NCBI RefSeq assembly: GCF_002075285.3
Contig: NZ_CP021983.2
Span: 3,510,001 to 3,542,000, forward strand
Direction: 5' to 3'
DNA: 32,000 nt
Source of the DNA: Halomicronema hongdechloris C2206
Lineage (GTDB): Bacteria; Cyanobacteriota; Cyanobacteriia; Phormidesmidales; Phormidesmidaceae
In this document: positions 9,628 through 32,000 of the stretch, in pieces
Layout of the letters: each line of letters opens with the position of its first letter
Position numbering within the stretch: position 1 is the first letter of the stretch
Made by a program: the position numbers and the translations under genes
Notes under the pieces: model-generated
Seen by the model: the letters and a program-made list of their open reading frames with translations, nothing else
Told to the model about the DNA's origin: nothing
Databases searched by the model: none

Positions 9628-11052
9628 TCAAACCTGGGCGGTTTCCCGGGCCCACTCGGTGTGGAAGACCCCTTCTTTGTCCACCCGCTCATAGGTGTGG
9701 GCCCCGAAGTAGTCTCGCTGGGCCTGGGTGAGATTTTGTGGTAGGCGATCCCGCCGATAGCTGTCGAAGTAGTCTAGGGAGGCACTGAAGGCAGGCACCG
9801 GAATTCCCATCTGAGCGGCAGTGGCAATCACTTCGCGCCAGGCCTCTTGGCGATCGAGGATGGTCTGTTTGAACTCCGGGGCCAATAGCAGGTTGGGTAA
9901 CTGCCGGTTCTCATCGAAGGCATGCTTGATCTTGTTCAAAAAGCCAGCCCGAATGATGCAGCCTCCCTTCCAGATGCGGGCTGTCTCGCCCAGATTCAGA
10001 TCATAGTTATAGGTATCTGAGGCCTTGGCCAGAAGGGCCATGCCCTGGGCGTAGGAGCAGATTTTAGAGCAGTAGAGGGCATCGCGAATCTTATGGATGA
10101 AGCTGGCTCTATCGCCGCTGAATTGGCTGCTAGGCCCATTCAGTTGCTTAGAGGCCGCCACTCGCTCGCTCTTGATAGATGACATGATGCGAGCGTTCAC
10201 AGCCGCGGTGATAGTAGGAATGCCAATGCCTAATTCCAAGGCACTGATCACCGTCCAGCGACCGGTCCCCTTTTGACCGGCGGCATCCATGATTAGTTCC
10301 ACCAGGGGCTCTCGGATCTCGTCATCGAGCTTGGTGAAGATATCGGCGGTGATCTCCACCAGGAAGGAGTTGAGCTCATCGGTGGTGTTCCACTCGGTGA
10401 AGACCTCATGCAGCTGCTGGTGATTGAGGCCGACGGTGTTCTTGAGCAGGTCATAGGCTTCGGCAATGAGCTGCATATCGCCGTACTCAATGCCGTTGTG
10501 CACCATTTTGACGTAGTGGCCAGAGCCGCCAGGGCCGATGTAGGTGACGCAAGGGCCATCATCGACCTGGGCGGCGATCTTGGTGACAATCGGCTCGATG
10601 GATTCGTAGGCAGCCCGGGTACCACCAGGCATCAGGCTAGGACCATTGAGGGCACCTTCTTCGCCGCCACTGACCCCCATGCCGATGAACCGCAGTCCGG
10701 TGGCTTCCAGTTCTTCTACCCGGCGTTCGGTGTCTTCGAACAGGGAGTTGCCGCCGTCGATGATCATGTCGCCCTCTTGTAGCAGCGGTTTCAGCTGCTG
10801 GATGACGGCATCAACAGGCTTGCCTGCCTTGACCATGACCAGGATGCGGCGGGGGCGCTCCAGGGCGCTGACAAACTCTTCCAGGGAATAGGTGGCTTTG
10901 ACGTTTTTGCCCTGGGCCCGATTTTTCATGAAGGCGTCGGTCTTTTCGGCGGTGCGGTTATAGACCGCCACCGGGAATCCATTGCGCTCGACATTCAGGG
11001 CGAGGTTTTCCCCCATGACGGCGAGGCCGATTACACCAAAACTCTGTGCCAT
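9628..11052 (-). CDS. gnd: 6-phosphogluconate dehydrogenase, decarboxylating
   Basis: '[16 protein letters not shown]' is a Rossmann N-terminus. '[12 protein letters not shown]', '[11 protein letters not shown]' and '[22 protein letters not shown]' are present. ATG at 11052 is preferred over the track's TTG at 11067. Confidence 0.93.
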
Positions 11053-27848: not shown

Positions 27849-28427
27849 GGAGACACAGCGACAGGACTCGACGATGCCAACTTAAGCAAGACTTTTCTAG
27901 GATGAGGGGTGCTCTAAGACACCCTAAAACTCAGAAACAGTATAACGAGCCCCCCTGTAAACGCAATCATCTAGCAATATTTGCTGACAGAAGGCAAGGC
28001 CCAGCAGCAGGCAAGATAAGCCGTCGCTGCCGTCAGCCAGCCTCATATGTAAATATCCATCGGCAGGCGTAGAAATCTATCCGCAACGCCAGTTAAGGTC
28101 GGCAATCGGACTCGGTCTCTGCTGGCGTAGTAGGTTACTCAGGGCTTATTGCTCCTGGGGCAGGCGATTGCCGCCGTAGCATCAGCCATCAGGGAGAAGA
28201 CACCTGAGACGCTAGAGGAATTAGCTGCAACCGACCTGCTAAGGGGGGGAGAGCACATCCCCAGCCGAGAATCGCTGATCATTGGGGATTGGCTCGCTCG
28301 ACATTGCTCGTCTCCAATTCACAGCAAATAAGAGATATTGCCCGCCCAGTCGGCCCCGCCCAGTCAGAATGGATGCGCCAGAGCCCAGGACCTGGGTTGA
28401 CTGACAAACCTTTAACTCGGGGCGGTT

Positions 28428-28452
28428 AACCCGCGTAGGCGGGTTTTCTTTG
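28428..28452 (+). terminator. rho-independent terminator candidate with no obvious upstream gene
   Basis: aacccgc (28428-28434), loop gtag, gcgggtt (28439-28445), then ttctttg. Confidence 0.5.
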
Positions 28453-28500
28453 TATAGGCGCGGCTTCTAGCCACCAGCCATGAGGTTTTTGTCCGTCAAT

Positions 28501-28626
28501 CATCGCCGAGACTCTGGCAGTCATCGTCGAGACTCTGGCAGTCGTCGCTGATATCTGGAGTCTCGCGGTCGAGACTTAAACAGTCACCGCTGACACTCTG
28601 GTAGTCATTGTTGACACTCTCAATGC
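28501..28626. repeat. 21-bp tandem repeat, 6 progressively diverged units
   Basis: catcgccgagactctggcagt / catcgtcgagactctggcagt / cgtcgctgatatctggagtct / cgcggtcgagacttaaacagt / caccgctgacactctggtagt / cattgttgacactctcaatgc. Confidence 0.9.
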
Positions 28627-28784
28627 TTCAGGCGAATGGCATCGCAGACCTGATCCAACAGCGTCAGGCGGCCCGGCAGCAACGCGACTTTGTAAAGGCG
28701 GATGATATTCGCGATCAGTTAGCGACGGTGGGGATTACGGTGGTTGACCAAACCAATGGAGAAGTCCATTGGCATCGACAGTGA
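28623..28784 (+). pseudogene. cysS: orphan 3' fragment of cysteine--tRNA ligase (last ~50 codons only)
   Basis: 'MLQANGIADLIQQRQAARQQRDFVKADDIRDQLATVGITVVDQTNGEVHWHRQ*' matches the remembered CysRS C-terminal pattern I..LI.QR..AR....F..AD.IRD.L...GI...D...G..W.R. No catalytic part lies upstream. Confidence 0.7.
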
Positions 28785-28805: not shown

Positions 28806-29828
28806 CTAACTATCTAGCGGACTTCGCACTCCCCGTCCACCCCGATTCAGCACATTCAAAGGCATTTCAGACCTGACAATGTTGTCTCGTGCTCTGAAAT
28901 ACGAAATACCTTTGGTATAGATCATGGTGGTTTTCACATCTTTGTGTCCCAACAATTCTTGAATGGTGCGGATGTCGTAGTCGTTTTCCAGCAGGTGAGT
29001 TGCAAAGCTATGGCGAAGGGTATGACAACTGACGCGCTTTTGCACACCAGCTTGCCTGACGGCTCGTTTGATGGCTCGCTGCAATCCACTCTCATGAAGG
29101 TGATGACGATGCACAATGCCACTACGCGGATCTTTGGAAAAGCGCTCTGCCGGAAATACAAACTGCCAAATCCATTCACAGTCCGCGTGAGGATATTTGT
29201 GCTCTAACGCAAAAGGTAGATAAACCGAACCATAGCCCTGCGCCAAGTCTTGTTGATGCAACTGTCAAACGCTTTGCAAATGCTGTTGGAAATCTTCGAT
29301 CAGGCTGGTTGGCAACATGGTGATGCGACTTTCGCCCCCTTTCGCATTTCTCACTGTGATTTGCTGTTGAGAAAAATCCAGGTCTTTGATGCGAAGCCGC
29401 AGTGCTTCATTGAGTCTCAAGCCGCTACCGTAAAGTAATTTGGCCACCAATTGATAGACACCCGAGAGGTTTTGTAGCACTTCTGTGGCCTCTGTCGGAG
29501 TGAGGACAGTCGGTAGATGACGCGATCGCTTAGCTCGCACCGCATTAACATCTATCCCCAAATCCTGCTTCAAAACCTGGCGGTAAAGAAAAACCACCGC
29601 ATTGAGCGCCTGGTTCTGCGTTGAAGCCGAGACCTTACCCACCACTGCTAGATGGGTCAAAAACGCCTCTAACTCAGCTCCTCCCATCTCAGCGGGATGC
29701 CGCTTTTGATGGAACAAGATGTAGCGGCGAATCCAATAAACGTAGGTTTGCTCAGTGCGATAGGAATAGTGCTTTAGTCGGATTTGGTCTCGAACTTGAT
29801 CCAGTAGTTTTCGAGGTTGAGCTTCCAT
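28806..29828 (-). pseudogene. intI: integron integrase (IntI), inactivated
   Basis: '[24 protein letters not shown]', '[12 protein letters not shown]' and '[14 protein letters not shown]' are present. So is the IntI-specific segment '[44 protein letters not shown]', and the tail '[14 protein letters not shown]'. There is an in-frame TGA at 29265-29267 and a 57-nt insertion right after the catalytic-Tyr motif. Confidence 0.85.
28858..28913. repeat. small palindromic insertion inside intI
   Basis: aaaggcatttcag (28858-28870) pairs with ctgaaat[acgaaat]accttt (28894-28913). An inner hairpin gacaa-tg-ttgtc is present. The insertion is in frame, adding '[19 protein letters not shown]' between MIYT and (H->N)VLNRGG. 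Confidence 0.7.
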
Positions 29829-29878
29829 CAGTGGTAGACACAGTACACATGTATCTATCTTCACTCATGTTCAGTGCA

Positions 29879-30059
29879 ATATACTGAGAAAACTCGGCAG
29901 ATATACTGAAACTTTCAGTATATCTACCTAACATGAGCGTACTATATGGACAGCTTGCTGCCTATCCACTGTATTAGGCAGGATATACTGCAAGCAATCA
30001 GCCTATCCACCCTGTTTGAGGTAGATATACTGCAACTGTCGATCTAATAAGAGTTGGAC
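29879..30059 (+). promoter_or_regulatory. attI-like region with ATATACTG iterons, ending at GTTGGAC
   Basis: ATATACTG occurs at 29879, 29901, 29983 and 30025 (direct) and at 29916-29923 (inverted). A 25-bp perfect palindrome lies at 29900-29924. Two 41-bp direct repeats lie at 29960-30000 and 30001-30041. A GTTRRRY match lies at 30053-30059. Confidence 0.55.
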
Positions 30060-30908
30060 AGCGCTCGAACACGATCGTGAAACGCACAGTGCCCGATGAG
30101 AGAAGTGCTATCTGAACACCTAGCCACGTTCATCCGGTCCCTCCCGGAGAAGCGCGAGTACGCCCGCGACGATCTTCTCGTTCCTGCGCTGAAGGTCGCC
30201 GAGGATGCCGACAAGGGGCTTGCCGTGTACGACGCTCCGTTCGGCTGGGGCAACCAAGAAGCGCGTGTGGCCCTGATTGGCGTGACGCCGGGTTTCACCC
30301 AGATGCAGATTCTCTATCGCGTAGTGCGGAGGCACCTCCTGTTGGGTGCGAGCCCCGAAGACGCTTGCAGGTTGGCCAAGTACGAAGCCAGCTTTGGTGG
30401 CACCATGCGCGGGAATCTCGTTCGGATGCTGGACGAGCTCGGGGTGCCGGAACTCCTCGAGGTCGCATCCACCGCCGATCTCTTTGGTTCCAGTTCCCAT
30501 CTTCTGCACACCACTTCGGCTGTTCGGTACCCGACGTTCCTCCACGGGCAGAACTACACTGGCAGTCAGCCGCGGCTCGTGAGGTCCGCCTTCTTGATGC
30601 GATACGTTCGGGACGTTCTTGCGCCGGAGCTGTCCCGGCTCCATGCTGCAGTCTTCGTTCCACTCGGCAAGAGCGTCGCCGAGGCCTTGGAGCTACTGGA
30701 GACCGAGCAGCGCATCCCGGCTGGTCGAACGCTACATGGATTCCCACATCCATCGGGCGCGAACGGTCACCGCGCGCGGCAATTCGAGAAGGGGAAGCCC
30801 GCGATGAGGCGGCGGTTCGAGGAGATCTTGTGTGGAGGTGCCTCGGCGGGCGCTGTCCAACAACAGCATGCAGCGGACGGCGCTGCGCGCCGCCGCTGAT
30901 GCCACACG
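30054..30908 (+). mobile_element. integron gene cassette (855 bp)
   Basis: It starts with TTGGAC after G30053 and ends at G30908 of GTTATGC. R'' GTCCAAC (30855-30861) is the exact complement of G+TTGGAC. In sampled 60-nt lines the interior is 62-65% GC against 37-43% in the flanks. Confidence 0.7.
30096..30899 (+). CDS. UDG-superfamily-like protein (uracil-DNA glycosylase fold), cassette-encoded
   Basis: Motif-A-like 'VALIGVTPGF' (compare GxxPG). 'ASFGGTMRGNLVRMLDELGV', 'LLHTTSAVRYP' and 'VFVPLGKSVAEAL' follow. Motif-B-like 'HGFPHPSGANG' (compare HPS). The motif order fits the UDG fold. This is from memory and was not searched. Confidence 0.55.
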   Translation: MREVLSEHLATFIRSLPEKREYARDDLLVPALKVAEDADKGLAVYDAPFGWGNQEARVALIGVTPGFTQMQILYRVVRRHLLLGASPEDACRLAKYEASFGGTMRGNLVRMLDELGVPELLEVASTADLFGSSSHLLHTTSAVRYPTFLHGQNYTGSQPRLVRSAFLMRYVRDVLAPELSRLHAAVFVPLGKSVAEALELLETEQRIPAGRTLHGFPHPSGANGHRARQFEKGKPAMRRRFEEILCGGASAGAVQQQHAADGAARRR

Positions 30909-30914
30909 TTATGC
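30855..30914 (+). other. attC-like recombination site (60 bp)
   Basis: GTCCAAC-aaca-gcatGcagcgg-a-cggcg-ctgcg-cgccg-ccgctgatgc-cacac-GTTATGC. It has 10+5 paired positions with two unpaired bases (G30870, A30877) on the R''/L'' arm. It overlaps the ORF stop at 30897-30899. Confidence 0.6.
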
Positions 30915-31030: not shown

Positions 31031-31876
31031 TTATGTTAAAAAGTTGTAGTGCTCACAAAGCTTCTTCAACTTGCTTATTAATTGATTTTGTACGCTTGCA
31101 GGAGATAAAACTAGACATTCTTCCCCATAACGTAGGATCTCTCGAATAAACCAGAATGTATTTGATACACGTCTAACTATGTAGCGAGCATCGTCCTTTA
31201 CCTCATTGGTTATGTCATCTGGTTTAGGTTCATAAGCTTTTACCAACCTTCCCAATACTTGTAAGTGCACTTCGATATATTCAAGCCGATCTTGCCAACT
31301 GCCACTTGCTGGCAAGACGTTGATAATTCTATCTAAACGGAAGCAACGGTTATGGATTAGCTCGGGTAGATTCAAGCTACCCTCCGTTTCCTCACACCAT
31401 GCTTCTAGATAGAATCGCTTTTCCCAAAAGCGAATTTCGCCGTAGCGAACGGTAAATTCCATCTGTTTGTTTTGAGAGTCTTCATAAAACAGATGAAAAG
31501 GCTGTTTAGCTTTAATTTGCTGATCAATGACTCTACGCCATGATTCAGTAGGATGACTAACTTGTTCCAGCAGTGCCTGGCGTAAAGGTGTCTCTAAATT
31601 GCCATGTTCTAGTAGGAAAAGGGCCAAAGTCTGTGCATCGGCAATATGACCAGAATCAACCAATAGTCTTATAGCTTGTCTGATGGCTGTATTTTGACTT
31701 GGGTCAAGTGCAAGTACACTGCCAACCTCAAGTTGGTGTTGAGCGATCGCCACGACTAACCCTGAAATACTGGGTTTATCGCCCCACATAATGCCTAAGC
31801 CATCAGCTATTGCCTCTAACTGCTCTTTAGTTCCAGGTGGGATGGAAAGTGTGATTGTCTCCTTTCTACGCGCCAT
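31031..31876 (-). CDS. ribbon-helix-helix + WYL-domain transcriptional regulator
   Basis: The N-terminus 'KETITLSIPPGTKEQLEAIADGLG' is RHH/CopG-like. The WYL core is 'FTVRYGEIRFWEKRFYLEAWCEE...HNRCFRLDRIINV'. A C-terminal extension follows. Sampled lines give ~38-40% GC. Confidence 0.75.
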   Translation of the reverse strand: MARRKETITLSIPPGTKEQLEAIADGLGIMWGDKPSISGLVVAIAQHQLEVGSVLALDPSQNTAIRQAIRLLVDSGHIADAQTLALFLLEHGNLETPLRQALLEQVSHPTESWRRVIDQQIKAKQPFHLFYEDSQNKQMEFTVRYGEIRFWEKRFYLEAWCEETEGSLNLPELIHNRCFRLDRIINVLPASGSWQDRLEYIEVHLQVLGRLVKAYEPKPDDITNEVKDDARYIVRRVSNTFWFIREILRYGEECLVLSPASVQNQLISKLKKLCEHYNFLT

Positions 31877-32000
31877 TTTAGTTATACTTGCACCTTTCAG
31901 GAAATGTCGTTAGTATACATATATAGTCCATTCTCTCAAAATCTTACCTGAGTTTACTCAATTGTATCACCGTCTCAGTGAGGGATTCCCAGCATTACCC

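What the first reader, a model, noticed from the sequence alone, without database searches (positions are those of the whole stretch)
30096..30899. Cassette cargo is a UDG-fold protein of unclear family, compositionally unlike its flanks
Seen: the 267-aa ORF has GVTPG and HPSG motifs in the order and spacing expected for motifs A and B of the uracil-DNA glycosylase superfamily. It is GC-rich inside an AT-rich island. Established: UDG-fold enzymes excise uracil or modified bases. Integron cassettes and defence islands often carry nucleic-acid-targeting functions. Inference: it may be a glycosylase acting on unusual or modified (phage?) DNA rather than a housekeeping Ung. Its motif A (G-V-T-P-G) resembles the MUG/TDG-type GINPG more than family 1.
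Basis: partly seen in the sequence, partly recalled or inferred. Interest (0 to 1): 0.6.

Follow-up and report, generated by a model that had tools for sequence, protein, structure and literature searches.

The report
Integron cassette encoding an unclassified UDG-fold glycosylase

Summary
ORF 30096..30899 (+) exists and is identical to a Halomicronema hongdechloris C2206 hypothetical protein. It has G62-V-T-P-G66 and H218-P-S-G221 and is GC-rich (0.63) between AT-rich flanks (0.41-0.49).

It is the first cassette of a chromosomal integron. The cassette runs 30054..30908, with a 60-bp attC (30855..30914) that contains the stop codon and encodes the last 14 residues. The divergent intI carries an in-frame stop and an insertion, so it is probably dead. 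The same gene with the same attC type recurs in Nitrospirota, Acidobacteriota, Betaproteobacteria and metagenomes.

The AlphaFold2 model is confident (pLDDT 92.6). Its top 25 PDB fold matches are all UDG-superfamily enzymes, but weak. Pfam UDG hits 30 of 35 relatives. The protein fits none of families 1-6, UdgX or Brig1.

It belongs to a separate family of about 1,900 clusters at 50% identity, defined by G-[VI]-T-P-G-[WF]-T-Q-M and F-P-H-P-S-G-A-N-G-H-R, with no conserved cysteine. Its catalytic-type residues are near-invariant, so an active monofunctional glycosylase is likely.

The role is unresolved: anti-phage about 0.4, accessory repair about 0.35. Firmicute relatives sit in stable housekeeping loci. 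I could not obtain the sequence of Brig2, a published integron UDG-like defence enzyme, so that comparison is missing.

The parts
28806..29864 (-). Integron integrase gene intI, degenerate. It has an in-frame TGA at 29265-29267, and about 60 nt (about 28854-28913) encoding a 20-aa insert that replaces the His of the catalytic IYTH motif.
   Evidence: TIGR02249 integron integrase matches both halves (6.8e-71 and 7.5e-59). Translation and comparison with the intact IntI of L009.
29865..30053 (.). attI / intI-promoter region, AT-rich (GC 0.41). It holds four exact copies of GATATACTG and a 33-bp palindrome at 29896-29928, a candidate operator.
   Evidence: 4 matches against 0.13 expected; inverted repeat I2, 94% complementary; GC.
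30053..30059 (+). Recombination core site GTTGGAC (attI x attC junction). The crossover lies between G30053 and T30054, which marks the cassette start.
   Evidence: Sequence. It is complementary to R'' GTCCAAC at 30855-61 as part of a 15-nt inverted repeat. Homologous cassettes start with the same TTGG(A/G)CAGC.
30054..30908 (+). Gene cassette, 855 bp, GC 0.633, containing one ORF.
   Evidence: Boundaries; composition.
30096..30899 (+). ORF for a 267-aa UDG-superfamily protein (XM38_033600). Residues 254-267 are encoded by attC and have low model confidence.
30279..30305 (+). Motif A and its extension, G62-V-T-P-G-F-T-Q-M70. T64 sits at the water-positioning site that is D in family 1 and N in families 2 and 3. 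G66-M70 is in register with the SMUG1 G87-M91 loop that reads the C5 substituent.
   Evidence: Conservation. Register with SMUG1 motif A in the HMM alignment. Residue roles from PMC5387724 and PMC6749576.
30393..30395 (+). F100 within S-F-x-G-x-M-R, the candidate base-stacking aromatic residue.
   Evidence: Conserved in 224/229. The role is inferred by analogy with F98 of SMUG1 (PMC6749576).
30552..30563 (+). N153-Y-T-G156, a candidate 'motif 3' Asn, which positions the water in families 4 and 5.
   Evidence: N153 conserved in 217/229 and Y154 in 224/229. It aligns to GKNLT of Xenopus SMUG1. The role is inferred from PMC5387724.
30747..30773 (+). Motif B, H218-P-S-G-A-N-G-H-R226. H218 is the candidate leaving-group-stabilising His; the following loop is the candidate intercalating loop.
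   Evidence: H218 225/229, N223 218/229, R226 219/229. It aligns to HPSPRN of SMUG1.
30855..30914 (+). attC site, 60 bp. R'' is GTCCAAC (30855-61), followed by an imperfect hairpin with two bulged bases on the '' arm, then R' GTTATGC (30908-14). It contains the ORF stop codon (30897-99).
   Evidence: Fold -25 kcal/mol, z -2.9. 91.8% of cells paired against 25-48% for slid controls, with 4 pairs showing compensatory changes across 6 cassettes. The core is identical in L083 and L006.
31031..31876 (-). Neighbouring AT-rich gene for a WYL-WCX protein with a possible N-terminal ribbon-helix-helix (RHH), a probable ligand-sensing transcription regulator. Whether it belongs to the integron is not established.
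   Evidence: Pfam WCX 5.6e-8, WYL 7.3e-4, RHH 0.019 (below Pfam's cut-off); PADLOC WYL 3e-15; GC 0.423.

Best explanation
An 855-bp integron gene cassette sits first after attI in a chromosomal integron whose integrase is now a pseudogene. [quoted passage not shown] That much is shown or strongly supported.

Inferred mechanism: like other UDG-fold enzymes, it flips a base out of DNA into a pocket. The pocket would be built by motif A and its extension (G62-V-T-P-G-F-T-Q-M70), the stacking residue F100, N153 and motif B (H218-P-S-G-A-N223). H218 would stabilise the leaving base, and T64 and/or N153 would position the water. [quoted passage not shown] There is no Fe-S cluster and no partner protein.

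The SMUG1-like register of motif A's extension and of HPSxxN points to uracil or a 5-substituted uracil as the most likely substrate class. This is a weak inference.

Physiological role, my committed guess at about 0.4: in its cassette-borne form it acts as a single-gene restriction factor. It would excise a non-canonical pyrimidine from invading phage DNA, as Brig1, Brig2 and Brig3 do, while unmodified host DNA is spared. The confidence of 0.75 given for this explanation refers to the core statement (a cassette carrying an active glycosylase of a new UDG family), not to the defence role.
For: Cassette: the core sites, the 15-nt terminal inverted repeat and the attC hairpin with covariation; the adjacent divergent intI. 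The same gene with the same attC type occurs in a Nitrospirota cassette array rich in toxin-antitoxin genes (L085), in Vicinamibacterales next to IntI fragments (L006), in Betaproteobacteria (L005) and in metagenome contigs (L083).

Fold: AF2 pLDDT 92.6, pTM 0.88. The top 25 PDB fold hits are all UDG superfamily, with probabilities 0.44-1.0. BFVD top hits are also UDGs. Pfam UDG hits 30/35 members, best E 3.8e-7.

Distinct family: 1,940 clusters at 50% identity with E<=1e-3, and no spill-over into the far larger canonical families. hhalign against Brig1 gives probability 1.9%. No paper in the library holds the motifs GITPG, GVTPG or HPSGAN in a UDG context.

Likely active: T64, Q69, F100, R105, N153, H218, N223 and R226 are conserved in more than 94% of 229 representatives.

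SMUG1 register: both motifs align with Xenopus SMUG1.

Accessory or mobile character: present in 493 of 185,579 species genomes and 29 plasmid records. Three identical copies are annotated in this one genome. Neighbours include ParE/RelB, Phd/YoeB and Phd/PIN toxin-antitoxin pairs, IS110 and AlpA. It is absent from 50,697 phage genomes and 2.9 M viral contigs.

Precedent: integron cassettes encode UDG-like proteins, and one of them, Brig2, blocks phages with modified thymidine (bioRxiv 10.1101/2025.10.29.685425).
Against: No activity or phage assay exists for any member, as far as I could find. The window protein scores below Pfam's gathering threshold (17.2 against 24.3 bits). Fold matches are weak (E 5e-3 to 1, TM 0.32-0.55).

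Thr at the motif-A catalytic position is not described for any characterised family in the papers I read, so catalytic competence is inferred.

Against a defence role: Firmicute homologues (Paenibacillus, Exiguobacterium, Bacillaceae) lie in syntenic housekeeping neighbourhoods such as HtpG, NhaC, ABC transporters and two-component systems. The pocket residues are near-invariant across phyla, which suits one common substrate better than an arms race. There is no PADLOC hit for the protein. The PADLOC matches among 54 island-type neighbours are all to phage-defence-candidate (PDC-S11, PDC-S65, PDC-S09, PDC-M03B) or homing-endonuclease models, none to a named system. In Getz et al. only 1 of 7 integron UDG-like candidates protected against the panel tested.
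Confidence: 0.75

Rival explanations
1. It is an accessory base-excision-repair glycosylase: a back-up enzyme for a common lesion such as uracil, hypoxanthine/xanthine or oxidised pyrimidines (5-hmU, 5-fU). On this view it happens to have been captured as an integron cassette in some lineages and has no role in immunity.
For: Firmicute homologues sit in stable loci that are syntenic within clades, among housekeeping genes. In gammaproteobacterial MAGs the gene lies inside the liu operon with a decayed attC, so it has been retained long after capture. Candidate active-site residues are near-invariant across phyla. Motif B's SGAN is shared with family 6 hypoxanthine-DNA glycosylase, and HPSxxN with SMUG1 and family 5, which are all repair enzymes (PMC4787834). 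The PADLOC matches among the neighbours scanned are all to candidate (PDC) or homing-endonuclease models, none to a named system.
Against: The distribution is very sparse and patchy (0.27% of species genomes). The gene is carried on cassettes, plasmids and islands rich in toxin-antitoxin genes. It is absent from all phage collections, although phages commonly carry repair-type UDGs. Most hosts should already have canonical UDGs, but I did not check this.
Confidence: 0.35
2. It is a member of the already published Brig2 family, the integron-borne UDG-like defence glycosylase active against phages carrying 5-(2-aminoethyl)uridine or 5-acetylaminomethyl-dU. In that case the finding is a new member of a known defence family. 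This is a special case of the defence reading, not a separate possibility.
For: Brig2 came from a Vibrionaceae integron cassette and has a UDG fold with <=20% identity to Brig1. The phylum counts of its PSI-BLAST family are Pseudomonadota 735, Bacillota 274, Bacteroidota 32, Gemmatimonadota 19, Planctomycetota 9, Acidobacteriota 7 and Chloroflexota 5. These resemble the spread seen here: a large Pseudomonas/Vibrio/Endozoicomonas subclade, many Bacillota, plus Bacteroidota, Gemmatimonadota, Acidobacteriota and Chloroflexota. The SMUG1-like register would fit a 5-substituted-uracil substrate.
Against: There is no sequence comparison. The Brig2 sequence and its table (S9) are cut from the held text, and searches for this family's motifs and accessions in the supplement found nothing. 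The Vibrio members I inspected are on a plasmid or in ordinary or island loci, not in superintegron arrays. Getz et al. found 11 different UDG-like clusters, so the prior for any one of them is low.
Confidence: 0.25
3. It is a UDG-fold protein that is not a turnover glycosylase. It might bind DNA or cross-link to it as UdgX does, or it might act on another substrate such as RNA, a nucleotide or a base-modified precursor.
For: The best fold hits are UdgX structures. Thr replaces the usual Asp/Asn at the catalytic position of motif A. The family has a specific N-terminal module of about 55 residues and a helical insert of about 25 residues between motif A and F100.
Against: It has no KRRIH-type loop and no Fe-S cysteines of the kind found in UdgX (PMC4787834). 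The motif-B His, the stacking Phe and the motif-3-like Asn, which suffice for catalysis in families 4 and 5 where motif A has no polar residue (PMC5387724), are all conserved.
Confidence: 0.08

Closest known systems
SMUG1 (UDG family 3; GMNPG / HPSPRN)
   Same: UDG fold, with Foldseek hits 5h98, 9ggs and 1oe4. It is the only UDG in the PDB reached by the family profile, with motifs A and B in register. Both share G-x-x-P-G-x-x-x-M and H-P-S-x-x-N. The distance from the catalytic position to the His is 154 residues in both (T64 to H218 here; N85 to H239 in SMUG1). Neither has an Fe-S cluster.
   Different: The sequence similarity is not significant (E 0.95). Thr replaces the catalytic Asn85, and Ala replaces the wedge residue Arg243. 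This family has an extra N-terminal module and a helical insert. TM-scores are only about 0.35-0.45.
UdgX / family 4 UDGs (GEQPG or GE(A/G)PG; HPS(S/A)(L/I)L or HPAAVL)
   Same: These give the best Foldseek matches (8iij, 6io9; probability 0.99-1.0). An S-F-x-G-x-M-R...L segment resembles the P-F-x-G-x-A-G..L segment of family 4; that comparison is from my own knowledge. An Asn lies after strand beta-2, like the motif-3 Asn (PMC5387724).
   Different: There are no conserved cysteines, so no 4Fe-4S cluster. There is no KRRIH loop. Motif A has Thr rather than Ala/Gly/Gln and lacks the Glu.
Family 6 hypoxanthine-DNA glycosylase (GSLPG / SSSGAN)
   Same: Motif B shares S-G-A-N, and motif A shares G-x-x-P-G (PMC4787834). 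The M. acetivorans putative UDG 2l3f is among the fold hits (rank 23); that it is a family 6 relative is from my own knowledge.
   Different: Family 6 lacks the motif-B His, whereas here the His is near-invariant. The proteins here are about 90 residues longer than the 161-residue 2l3f chain. No sequence-level hit was found.
Brig1 / Brig3 (UDG-superfamily anti-phage glycosylases for alpha-glucosyl-5hmC and 5hmC)
   Same: Stand-alone proteins of about 260 aa with a divergent UDG fold, found in mobile or island contexts. Their mechanism, base excision producing abasic sites in phage DNA, is the model for the defence reading (PMC11078745, PMC13160076).
   Different: hhalign of the family profile against Brig1 gives probability 1.9%, with only 19 columns around motif A aligned. 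Brig1 has GLNPG and no HPSGAN-type motif B. The Brig3 residues N50-P-S-R-x-E55 and D127 have no evident counterpart here.
Brig2 and the other integron-encoded UDG-like proteins of Vibrionaceae (Getz et al. 2025, bioRxiv 10.1101/2025.10.29.685425)
   Same: Integron cassette cargo with a UDG fold and <=20% identity to Brig1; a broad and similar phylum distribution; AT-rich surroundings.
   Different: I cannot say. This copy is in a cyanobacterial integron, not a Vibrio superintegron.

Membership tests
UDG superfamily (Pfam PF03167) | Alpha/beta fold with a central parallel sheet shared by UDG families 1-6 | tested here: met
   AF2 model pLDDT 92.6. The top 25 Foldseek PDB hits are all UDG-superfamily enzymes, although weak (E 5e-3 to 0.85, TM 0.32-0.52).
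UDG superfamily (Pfam PF03167) | Motif A (G-x-x-P-G/Y after strand beta-1) and motif B (HPS-type loop near the C-terminus), in that order | tested here: met
   G62-V-T-P-G66 follows strand 58-62, and H218-P-S follows. The Pfam alignment covers residues 49-232 against profile positions 1-128 of 141.
UDG superfamily (Pfam PF03167) | Score above Pfam's gathering threshold | tested here: inconclusive
   The window protein scores 17.2 bits against the 24.3-bit cut-off (E 0.0054). 30 of 35 relatives match at E<=0.1, best 3.8e-7.
UDG superfamily (Pfam PF03167) | N-glycosidic bond hydrolysis on DNA | not testable with these tools
   Inferred only from conservation of T64, F100, N153 and H218.
Family 1 UNG | Motifs GQDPY and HPSPLS | tested here: not met
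   The protein has GVTPG and HPSGAN; family motifs are taken from PMC4787834.
Family 2 MUG/TDG | GINPG with a catalytic Asn; motif B without His (MPSSAR) | tested here: not met
   Thr replaces Asn, and the motif-B His is near-invariant at 225/229.
Family 3 SMUG1 | GMNPG and HPSPRN; significant sequence similarity | tested here: not met
   Motif register is shared, but Asn is replaced by Thr and Arg by Ala. The family profile against 1oe4 gives E 0.95.
Families 4 / 5 / UdgX | Four Cys ligands of a 4Fe-4S cluster; GE(A/G)PG, GLAPA or GEQPG; KRRIH loop in UdgX | tested here: not met
   No Cys column reaches 85% conservation in 229 sequences, and motif A differs.
Family 6 HDG | GSLPG and SSSGAN (no His in motif B) | tested here: not met
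   SGAN is shared, but it is preceded by H-P. There is no sequence hit to 2l3f.
Brig1/Brig3 family | Detectable homology to Brig1 | tested here: not met
   hhalign of A1 against Brig1 (sequence from the PMC11078745 supplement) gives probability 1.9%.
Brig2 family | Homology to Brig2 (>30% identity and >70% coverage in the authors' PSI-BLAST definition) | not testable with these tools
   The sequence and Table S9 are absent from the held text.
Integron gene cassette | attC with inverse core sites R''/R' and an imperfect hairpin with extrahelical bases; boundaries at G|TT | tested here: met
   R'' is GTCCAAC and R' is GTTATGC. In the circular form, the final G joined to the cassette's first bases TTGGAC gives GTTGGAC, which is perfectly complementary to R''. 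There is a 15-nt terminal inverted repeat and two bulges on the '' arm. 91.8% of cells are paired, with 4 compensated pairs.
Integron gene cassette | Sits in an integron: next to attI and a divergent intI | tested here: met
   intI (TIGR02249) lies at 28806-29864 on the minus strand, 189 bp from the cassette start.
Functional (complete) integron | Intact IntI tyrosine recombinase | tested here: not met
   There is an in-frame TGA at 29265-67, and a 20-aa insert replaces the His next to the catalytic Tyr.

The most novel reading that the evidence does not exclude
The G-x-T-P-G / H-P-S-G-A-N proteins could be a further catalytic family of the UDG superfamily (Thr in motif A, His in motif B, no Fe-S). 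Its cassette-borne members would then be single-gene anti-phage restriction factors, moved between phyla by integrons, that excise a hypermodified base from phage DNA. The target could be an hmU-derived thymidine modification. Given the family-6-like SGAN motif and the cyanobacterial host, it could even be a modified purine such as the 2-aminoadenine of S-2L-type cyanophages. That would be a specificity not yet assigned to any UDG-fold enzyme.
Probability: 0.3. Interest if true: 0.7.

Novelty: new variant of a known kind. Interest (0 to 1): 0.45.

Why it matters
UDG-fold enzymes are classified by two short catalytic motifs, and each new motif combination has so far brought a new chemistry or substrate. 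Examples are hypoxanthine in family 6, covalent capture in UdgX, and glucosyl-hmC, hmC or aminoethyl-U in the Brig enzymes.

This family has an undescribed combination: Thr at the water-positioning site, with the leaving-group His retained and no Fe-S cluster. It is moderately large, at about 1,900 clusters at 50% identity, and it has no tested member that I could find.

Its movement as one cassette with one attC type across at least four phyla shows it is useful enough to be kept after transfer.

If it proves to be a defence enzyme, it would extend glycosylase-based immunity to cyanobacteria and soil phyla and would give a new reagent for mapping a modified base. If it proves to be a repair enzyme, it would be a seventh-type UDG and a case of DNA-repair capacity spreading on integrons.

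Tried and rejected
1. Sequence searches of the protein and of two family profiles against PDB chains found no significant hit. NCBIfam, PADLOC and PHROGs gave nothing for the protein.

2. Brig1 membership is rejected by hhalign.

3. I tried to get the Brig2 and Brig3 sequences from the papers and supplements. Only Brig1 was recoverable. The Brig2 tables are truncated in the held copy, and the Brig3 alignment is an image.

4. I looked for a conserved operon partner among 431 neighbouring ORFs of 78 loci. None exists; there is only clade-local synteny with housekeeping genes.

5. An IntI homologue lies within 10 kb in only 3 of 80 genome loci. Most relatives are therefore not in complete integrons, although several still carry recognisable or decayed attC sites.

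6. A strict RYYYAAC...GTTRRRY scan found no further attC in the window. Whether the WYL gene is a second cassette cannot be decided, because the window ends at 32000.

7. The look-up of encoding contigs has no record of the H. hongdechloris protein, and the single genome-contig scan did not return this genome. I therefore could not inspect the other two copies or the rest of the array.

8. Vibrionaceae members were inspected for superintegron context and none was in an array.

9. Phage genomes and IMG/VR viral contigs contain no member of the family.

10. The literature search for the motifs found no relevant paper.
Full report
**1. The observation**

ORF 30096..30899 (+) is present, starts with ATG and encodes 267 aa. 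It is 100% identical to hypothetical protein XM38_033600 of the cyanobacterium Halomicronema hongdechloris C2206. UniRef already labels that protein 'Uracil DNA glycosylase superfamily protein'.

GVTPG is residues 62-66 and HPSG is residues 218-221.

The composition claim is right:
- cassette GC 0.633 (GC3 0.73)
- attI region 0.407
- intI 0.487
- the 122 bp downstream 0.41
- the next gene 0.423
- the other 28.8 kb of the window 0.586; these encode cyanobacterial housekeeping genes (sulfite reductase, Ftn2/ARC6, PDH E1, SecDF, 6PGD)

**2. It is an integron cassette**

Immediately to the left, on the minus strand, lies an integron integrase gene (28806..29864). TIGR02249 matches both halves at 6.8e-71 and 7.5e-59.

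Cassette boundaries and attC:
- The core site GTTGGAC lies 189 bp from the intI start, at 30053-59.
- The cassette runs from T30054 to G30908 (855 bp).
- Its 3' end is a 60-bp attC (30855..30914) with R'' GTCCAAC and R' GTTATGC.
- The first 15 nt from the crossover are the inverted complement of the R'' side (30053-67 against 30847-61, 93%). This is what a cassette excised and re-inserted at G|TT should look like.

The attC folds into an imperfect hairpin with two bulged bases on the '' arm. I aligned six homologous cassettes and counted pairs for that structure. 91.8% of cells form standard pairs, against 25-48% when the partner columns are slid. Four pairs show changes on both sides. One example is GCAGCGG/CCGCTG in the window becoming GCAGCTG/CAGCTG in the Nitrospirota copy.

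The ORF's stop codon (30897-99) lies inside attC, and residues 254-267 (VQQQHAADGAARRR) are encoded by attC. This explains two things. The same tail (HAADGAxRRR/S) recurs in relatives that are only 52-70% identical. The model confidence also falls to 60-65 over the last ~17 residues.

The integrase is probably dead. It has an in-frame TGA at 29265-67, at a position where an intact relative has R/Q. A 20-aa insert replaces the His of the catalytic ...MIYTH... motif.

**3. The cassette travels**

The gene with the same attC type is found in several places:
- a Nitrospirota MAG, inside an array of small HicAB, BrnTA and HepT/MNT genes (L085)
- a Vicinamibacterales genome, next to IntI fragments (L006)
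- a betaproteobacterial MAG (L005)
- several metagenome contigs (L083/84, with ParE/RelB next door in L081)

A Binatia MAG has an intact IntI 750 bp upstream (L009).

In gammaproteobacterial MAGs (70-73% identity) the gene sits between the isovaleryl-CoA dehydrogenase-like and methylcrotonyl-CoA carboxylase genes, with a decayed attC. That looks like capture at a secondary site followed by retention.

The identical protein has three GenBank accessions in the H. hongdechloris genome, two of them nine proteins apart. I could not reach those loci.

**4. The protein has a UDG fold but belongs to no described family**

With a 35-sequence alignment, AlphaFold2 gives pLDDT 92.6 and pTM 0.88.

Foldseek against the PDB returns only UDG-superfamily enzymes in the top 25: UdgX, bacterial, Xenopus and human SMUG1, TDG, BdiUng and a Methanosarcina putative UDG. 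MUG follows at rank 35. The matches are weak, however (E 5e-3 to about 1, TM 0.32-0.55, identity 11-21%). BFVD gives the same picture.

Sequence-level results:
- Pfam UDG hits the window protein below threshold (17.2 against 24.3 bits), but hits 30 of 35 relatives (best 3.8e-7).
- NCBIfam, PADLOC and PHROGs have nothing.
- No PDB chain is hit significantly by the protein or by two family profiles. The only UDG that appears is Xenopus SMUG1 at E 0.95, with motifs A and B both in register.
- An exhaustive profile search of 1.84 billion representatives finds 1,940 clusters at E<=1e-3 and 1,464 at <=1e-10. The family is therefore discrete and does not merge into the much larger canonical families.

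In 229 diverse members the following are conserved in more than 94%: G62, T64, P65, G66, Q69, F100, G102, R105, S141, P146, F148, N153, Y154, G156, P159, P189, G191, P217, H218, P219, S220, N223 and R226. H138 is conserved in 89%. No cysteine is conserved, so there is no Fe-S cluster.

The published motif table (PMC4787834) reads:

| Family | Motif A | Motif B |
|---|---|---|
| F1 | GQDPY | HPSPLS |
| F2 | GINPG | MPSSAR |
| F3 | GMNPG | HPSPRN |
| F4 | GE(A/G)PG | HPAAVL |
| F5 | GLAPA | HPSPLN |
| F6 | GSLPG | SSSGAN |
| UdgX | GEQPG | HPS(S/A)(L/I)L |
| This family | G(V/I)TPG | HPSGAN |

The combination here is new. It has a Thr where families 1-3 have the water-activating Asp/Asn. It keeps the leaving-group His of families 1, 3, 4 and 5, and it shares the SGAN of family 6. 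I found no paper containing these motifs in a UDG context.

**5. Relation to the defence glycosylases**

Brig1 (PMC11078745) and Brig3 (PMC13160076) are UDG-superfamily enzymes that excise alpha-glucosyl-5hmC and 5hmC from T-even phage DNA. I recovered the Brig1 sequence from the paper's supplement. hhalign against the family profile gives probability 1.9%, with only 19 columns around motif A aligned. This is not the Brig1/Brig3 family.

Getz et al. (bioRxiv 10.1101/2025.10.29.685425) report that Vibrionaceae integrons encode 27 UDG-like proteins in 11 clusters. One of seven tested, Brig2, blocks Pseudomonas phages carrying 5-(2-aminoethyl)uridine or 5-acetylaminomethyl-dU.

The Brig2 sequence is not in the held text, so I could not compare it. 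The phylum counts of its PSI-BLAST family (Pseudomonadota > Bacillota > Bacteroidota > Gemmatimonadota > Planctomycetota > Acidobacteriota > Chloroflexota) resemble the spread of the present family. Identity with the Brig2 family therefore remains a live possibility, which I put at about 0.25.

**6. How it most likely works**

Known roles come from PMC5387724 and PMC6749576:
- The motif-B His stabilises the departing base.
- An Asp/Asn in motif A (families 1-3), or an Asn in 'motif 3' (families 4 and 5), positions the water.
- An aromatic residue stacks on the flipped base.
- In SMUG1 the G87-M91 stretch after motif A reads the C5 substituent.
- The loop after HPS intercalates into the DNA.

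By register, this protein offers:
- H218 for the leaving-group role
- T64 and/or N153 for water positioning
- F100 for stacking
- G66-F-T-Q-M70, which has the same G...M spacing as SMUG1, for the C5 side
- the loop A222-N223-G-H-R226 for intercalation

Because these residues are almost invariant, I infer an active monofunctional glycosylase that produces abasic sites. The preferred substrate class would be uracil-like, possibly 5-substituted. Every step of this paragraph is inference from register and conservation. No coordinates could be inspected, and nothing has been assayed.

**7. Repair or defence?**

For an accessory or defence role:
- The gene is carried on cassettes in at least four phyla.
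- Toxin-antitoxin genes, IS110 and AlpA-type island genes are neighbours.
- It occurs in 29 plasmid records.
- It is present in only 493 of 185,579 species genomes.
- It is absent from 50,697 phage genomes and 2.9 M viral contigs.
- The integron precedent above applies.

Against a defence role:
- The many Paenibacillus, Exiguobacterium and Bacillaceae homologues lie in neighbourhoods that are syntenic within clades. Judged by eye from their sequences, the neighbours are housekeeping genes: HtpG, NhaC, ABC transporters, two-component systems and a GDSL lipase.
- No partner gene is conserved.
- The pocket residues do not vary.
- Of 54 neighbours in the island-type loci, the only PADLOC matches are to phage-defence-candidate (PDC) and homing-endonuclease models, none to a named defence system.

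My estimates are: defence about 0.4 (including the Brig2-family case), accessory repair about 0.35, non-turnover or other about 0.1, and the rest unknown.

**8. Verdict**

The thing is real and coherent: a mobile cassette carrying a probable DNA glycosylase of an undescribed UDG family.

It is not categorically new. The superfamily assignment is already in public annotation, and the idea of integron-borne UDG-like defence enzymes was published in 2025.

It is nevertheless a clean, testable candidate for a new catalytic variant and substrate. Interest 0.45; novelty: new variant of a known kind.

Noticed in passing
window 29896-30040: The 9-mer GATATACTG occurs four times exactly (29900+, 29916-, 29982+, 30024+; 0.13 expected). 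Two of the copies form a near-perfect 33-bp palindrome (29896-29928) about 35 bp upstream of the intI start. A 21-nt copy lies just before the attI crossover. This is a candidate operator for intI or the cassette promoter. It does not look like a LexA box or the usual IntI-binding GTTRRRY repeats.
   Followed up: partly
window 28806-29864 (-): intI is a pseudogene. A single in-frame TGA lies at 29265-67. In addition, a 20-aa in-frame insert ([20 protein letters not shown], about 28854-28913) replaces the His next to the catalytic Tyr. The origin of the inserted ~60 nt is unknown.
   Followed up: partly
window 28608-28784 (+), and 27900-28600: A 58-aa ORF matches only the C-terminal anticodon-binding domain of cysteinyl-tRNA ligase (Pfam CysS_C, 4.5e-8) and abuts the 3' end of intI. 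The ~700 bp before it have no long ORF. This may be a remnant of cysS at the integron's insertion boundary.
   Followed up: no
window 31031-31876 (-): An AT-rich gene (GC 0.42, GC3 0.37) encodes a WYL-WCX protein with a weak N-terminal ribbon-helix-helix (RHH) match (PADLOC WYL 3e-15). It reads towards the cassette from the other side. Regulators of this kind are often found next to defence systems. Whether it is a second, inverted cassette, the integron's flank, or the binder of the GATATACTG repeats is unknown.
   Followed up: no
whole genome of H. hongdechloris C2206 (outside the window): The identical 267-aa protein has three GenBank accessions in this one genome (ASC69405.1 and ASC69414.1, nine proteins apart, and ASC72403.1). 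This implies recent cassette duplication or several cassette arrays.
   Followed up: no
L001-L003 (about 10001-10800), L092 3884-4687: In gammaproteobacterial MAGs and metagenomes the 70-73% identical gene sits inside the leucine-catabolism (liu) operon, between the acyl-CoA dehydrogenase and an SDR/methylcrotonyl-CoA carboxylase genes, with a decayed attC. It appears to be a cassette inserted at a secondary site and then kept.
   Followed up: partly
window 30096-30899, residue 46: The cassette-borne subclade, including the window protein, has Asp at a position where 196 of 229 family members have Tyr (VY-D-APF against VY-Y-APF). This is a subclade-specific change in the family-specific N-terminal module, and its significance is unknown.
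   Followed up: no
L083 10600-14736 (-): A gyrB gene carrying an intein with a LAGLIDADG homing endonuclease lies 2 kb from the homologous cassette in a metagenome contig.
   Followed up: no
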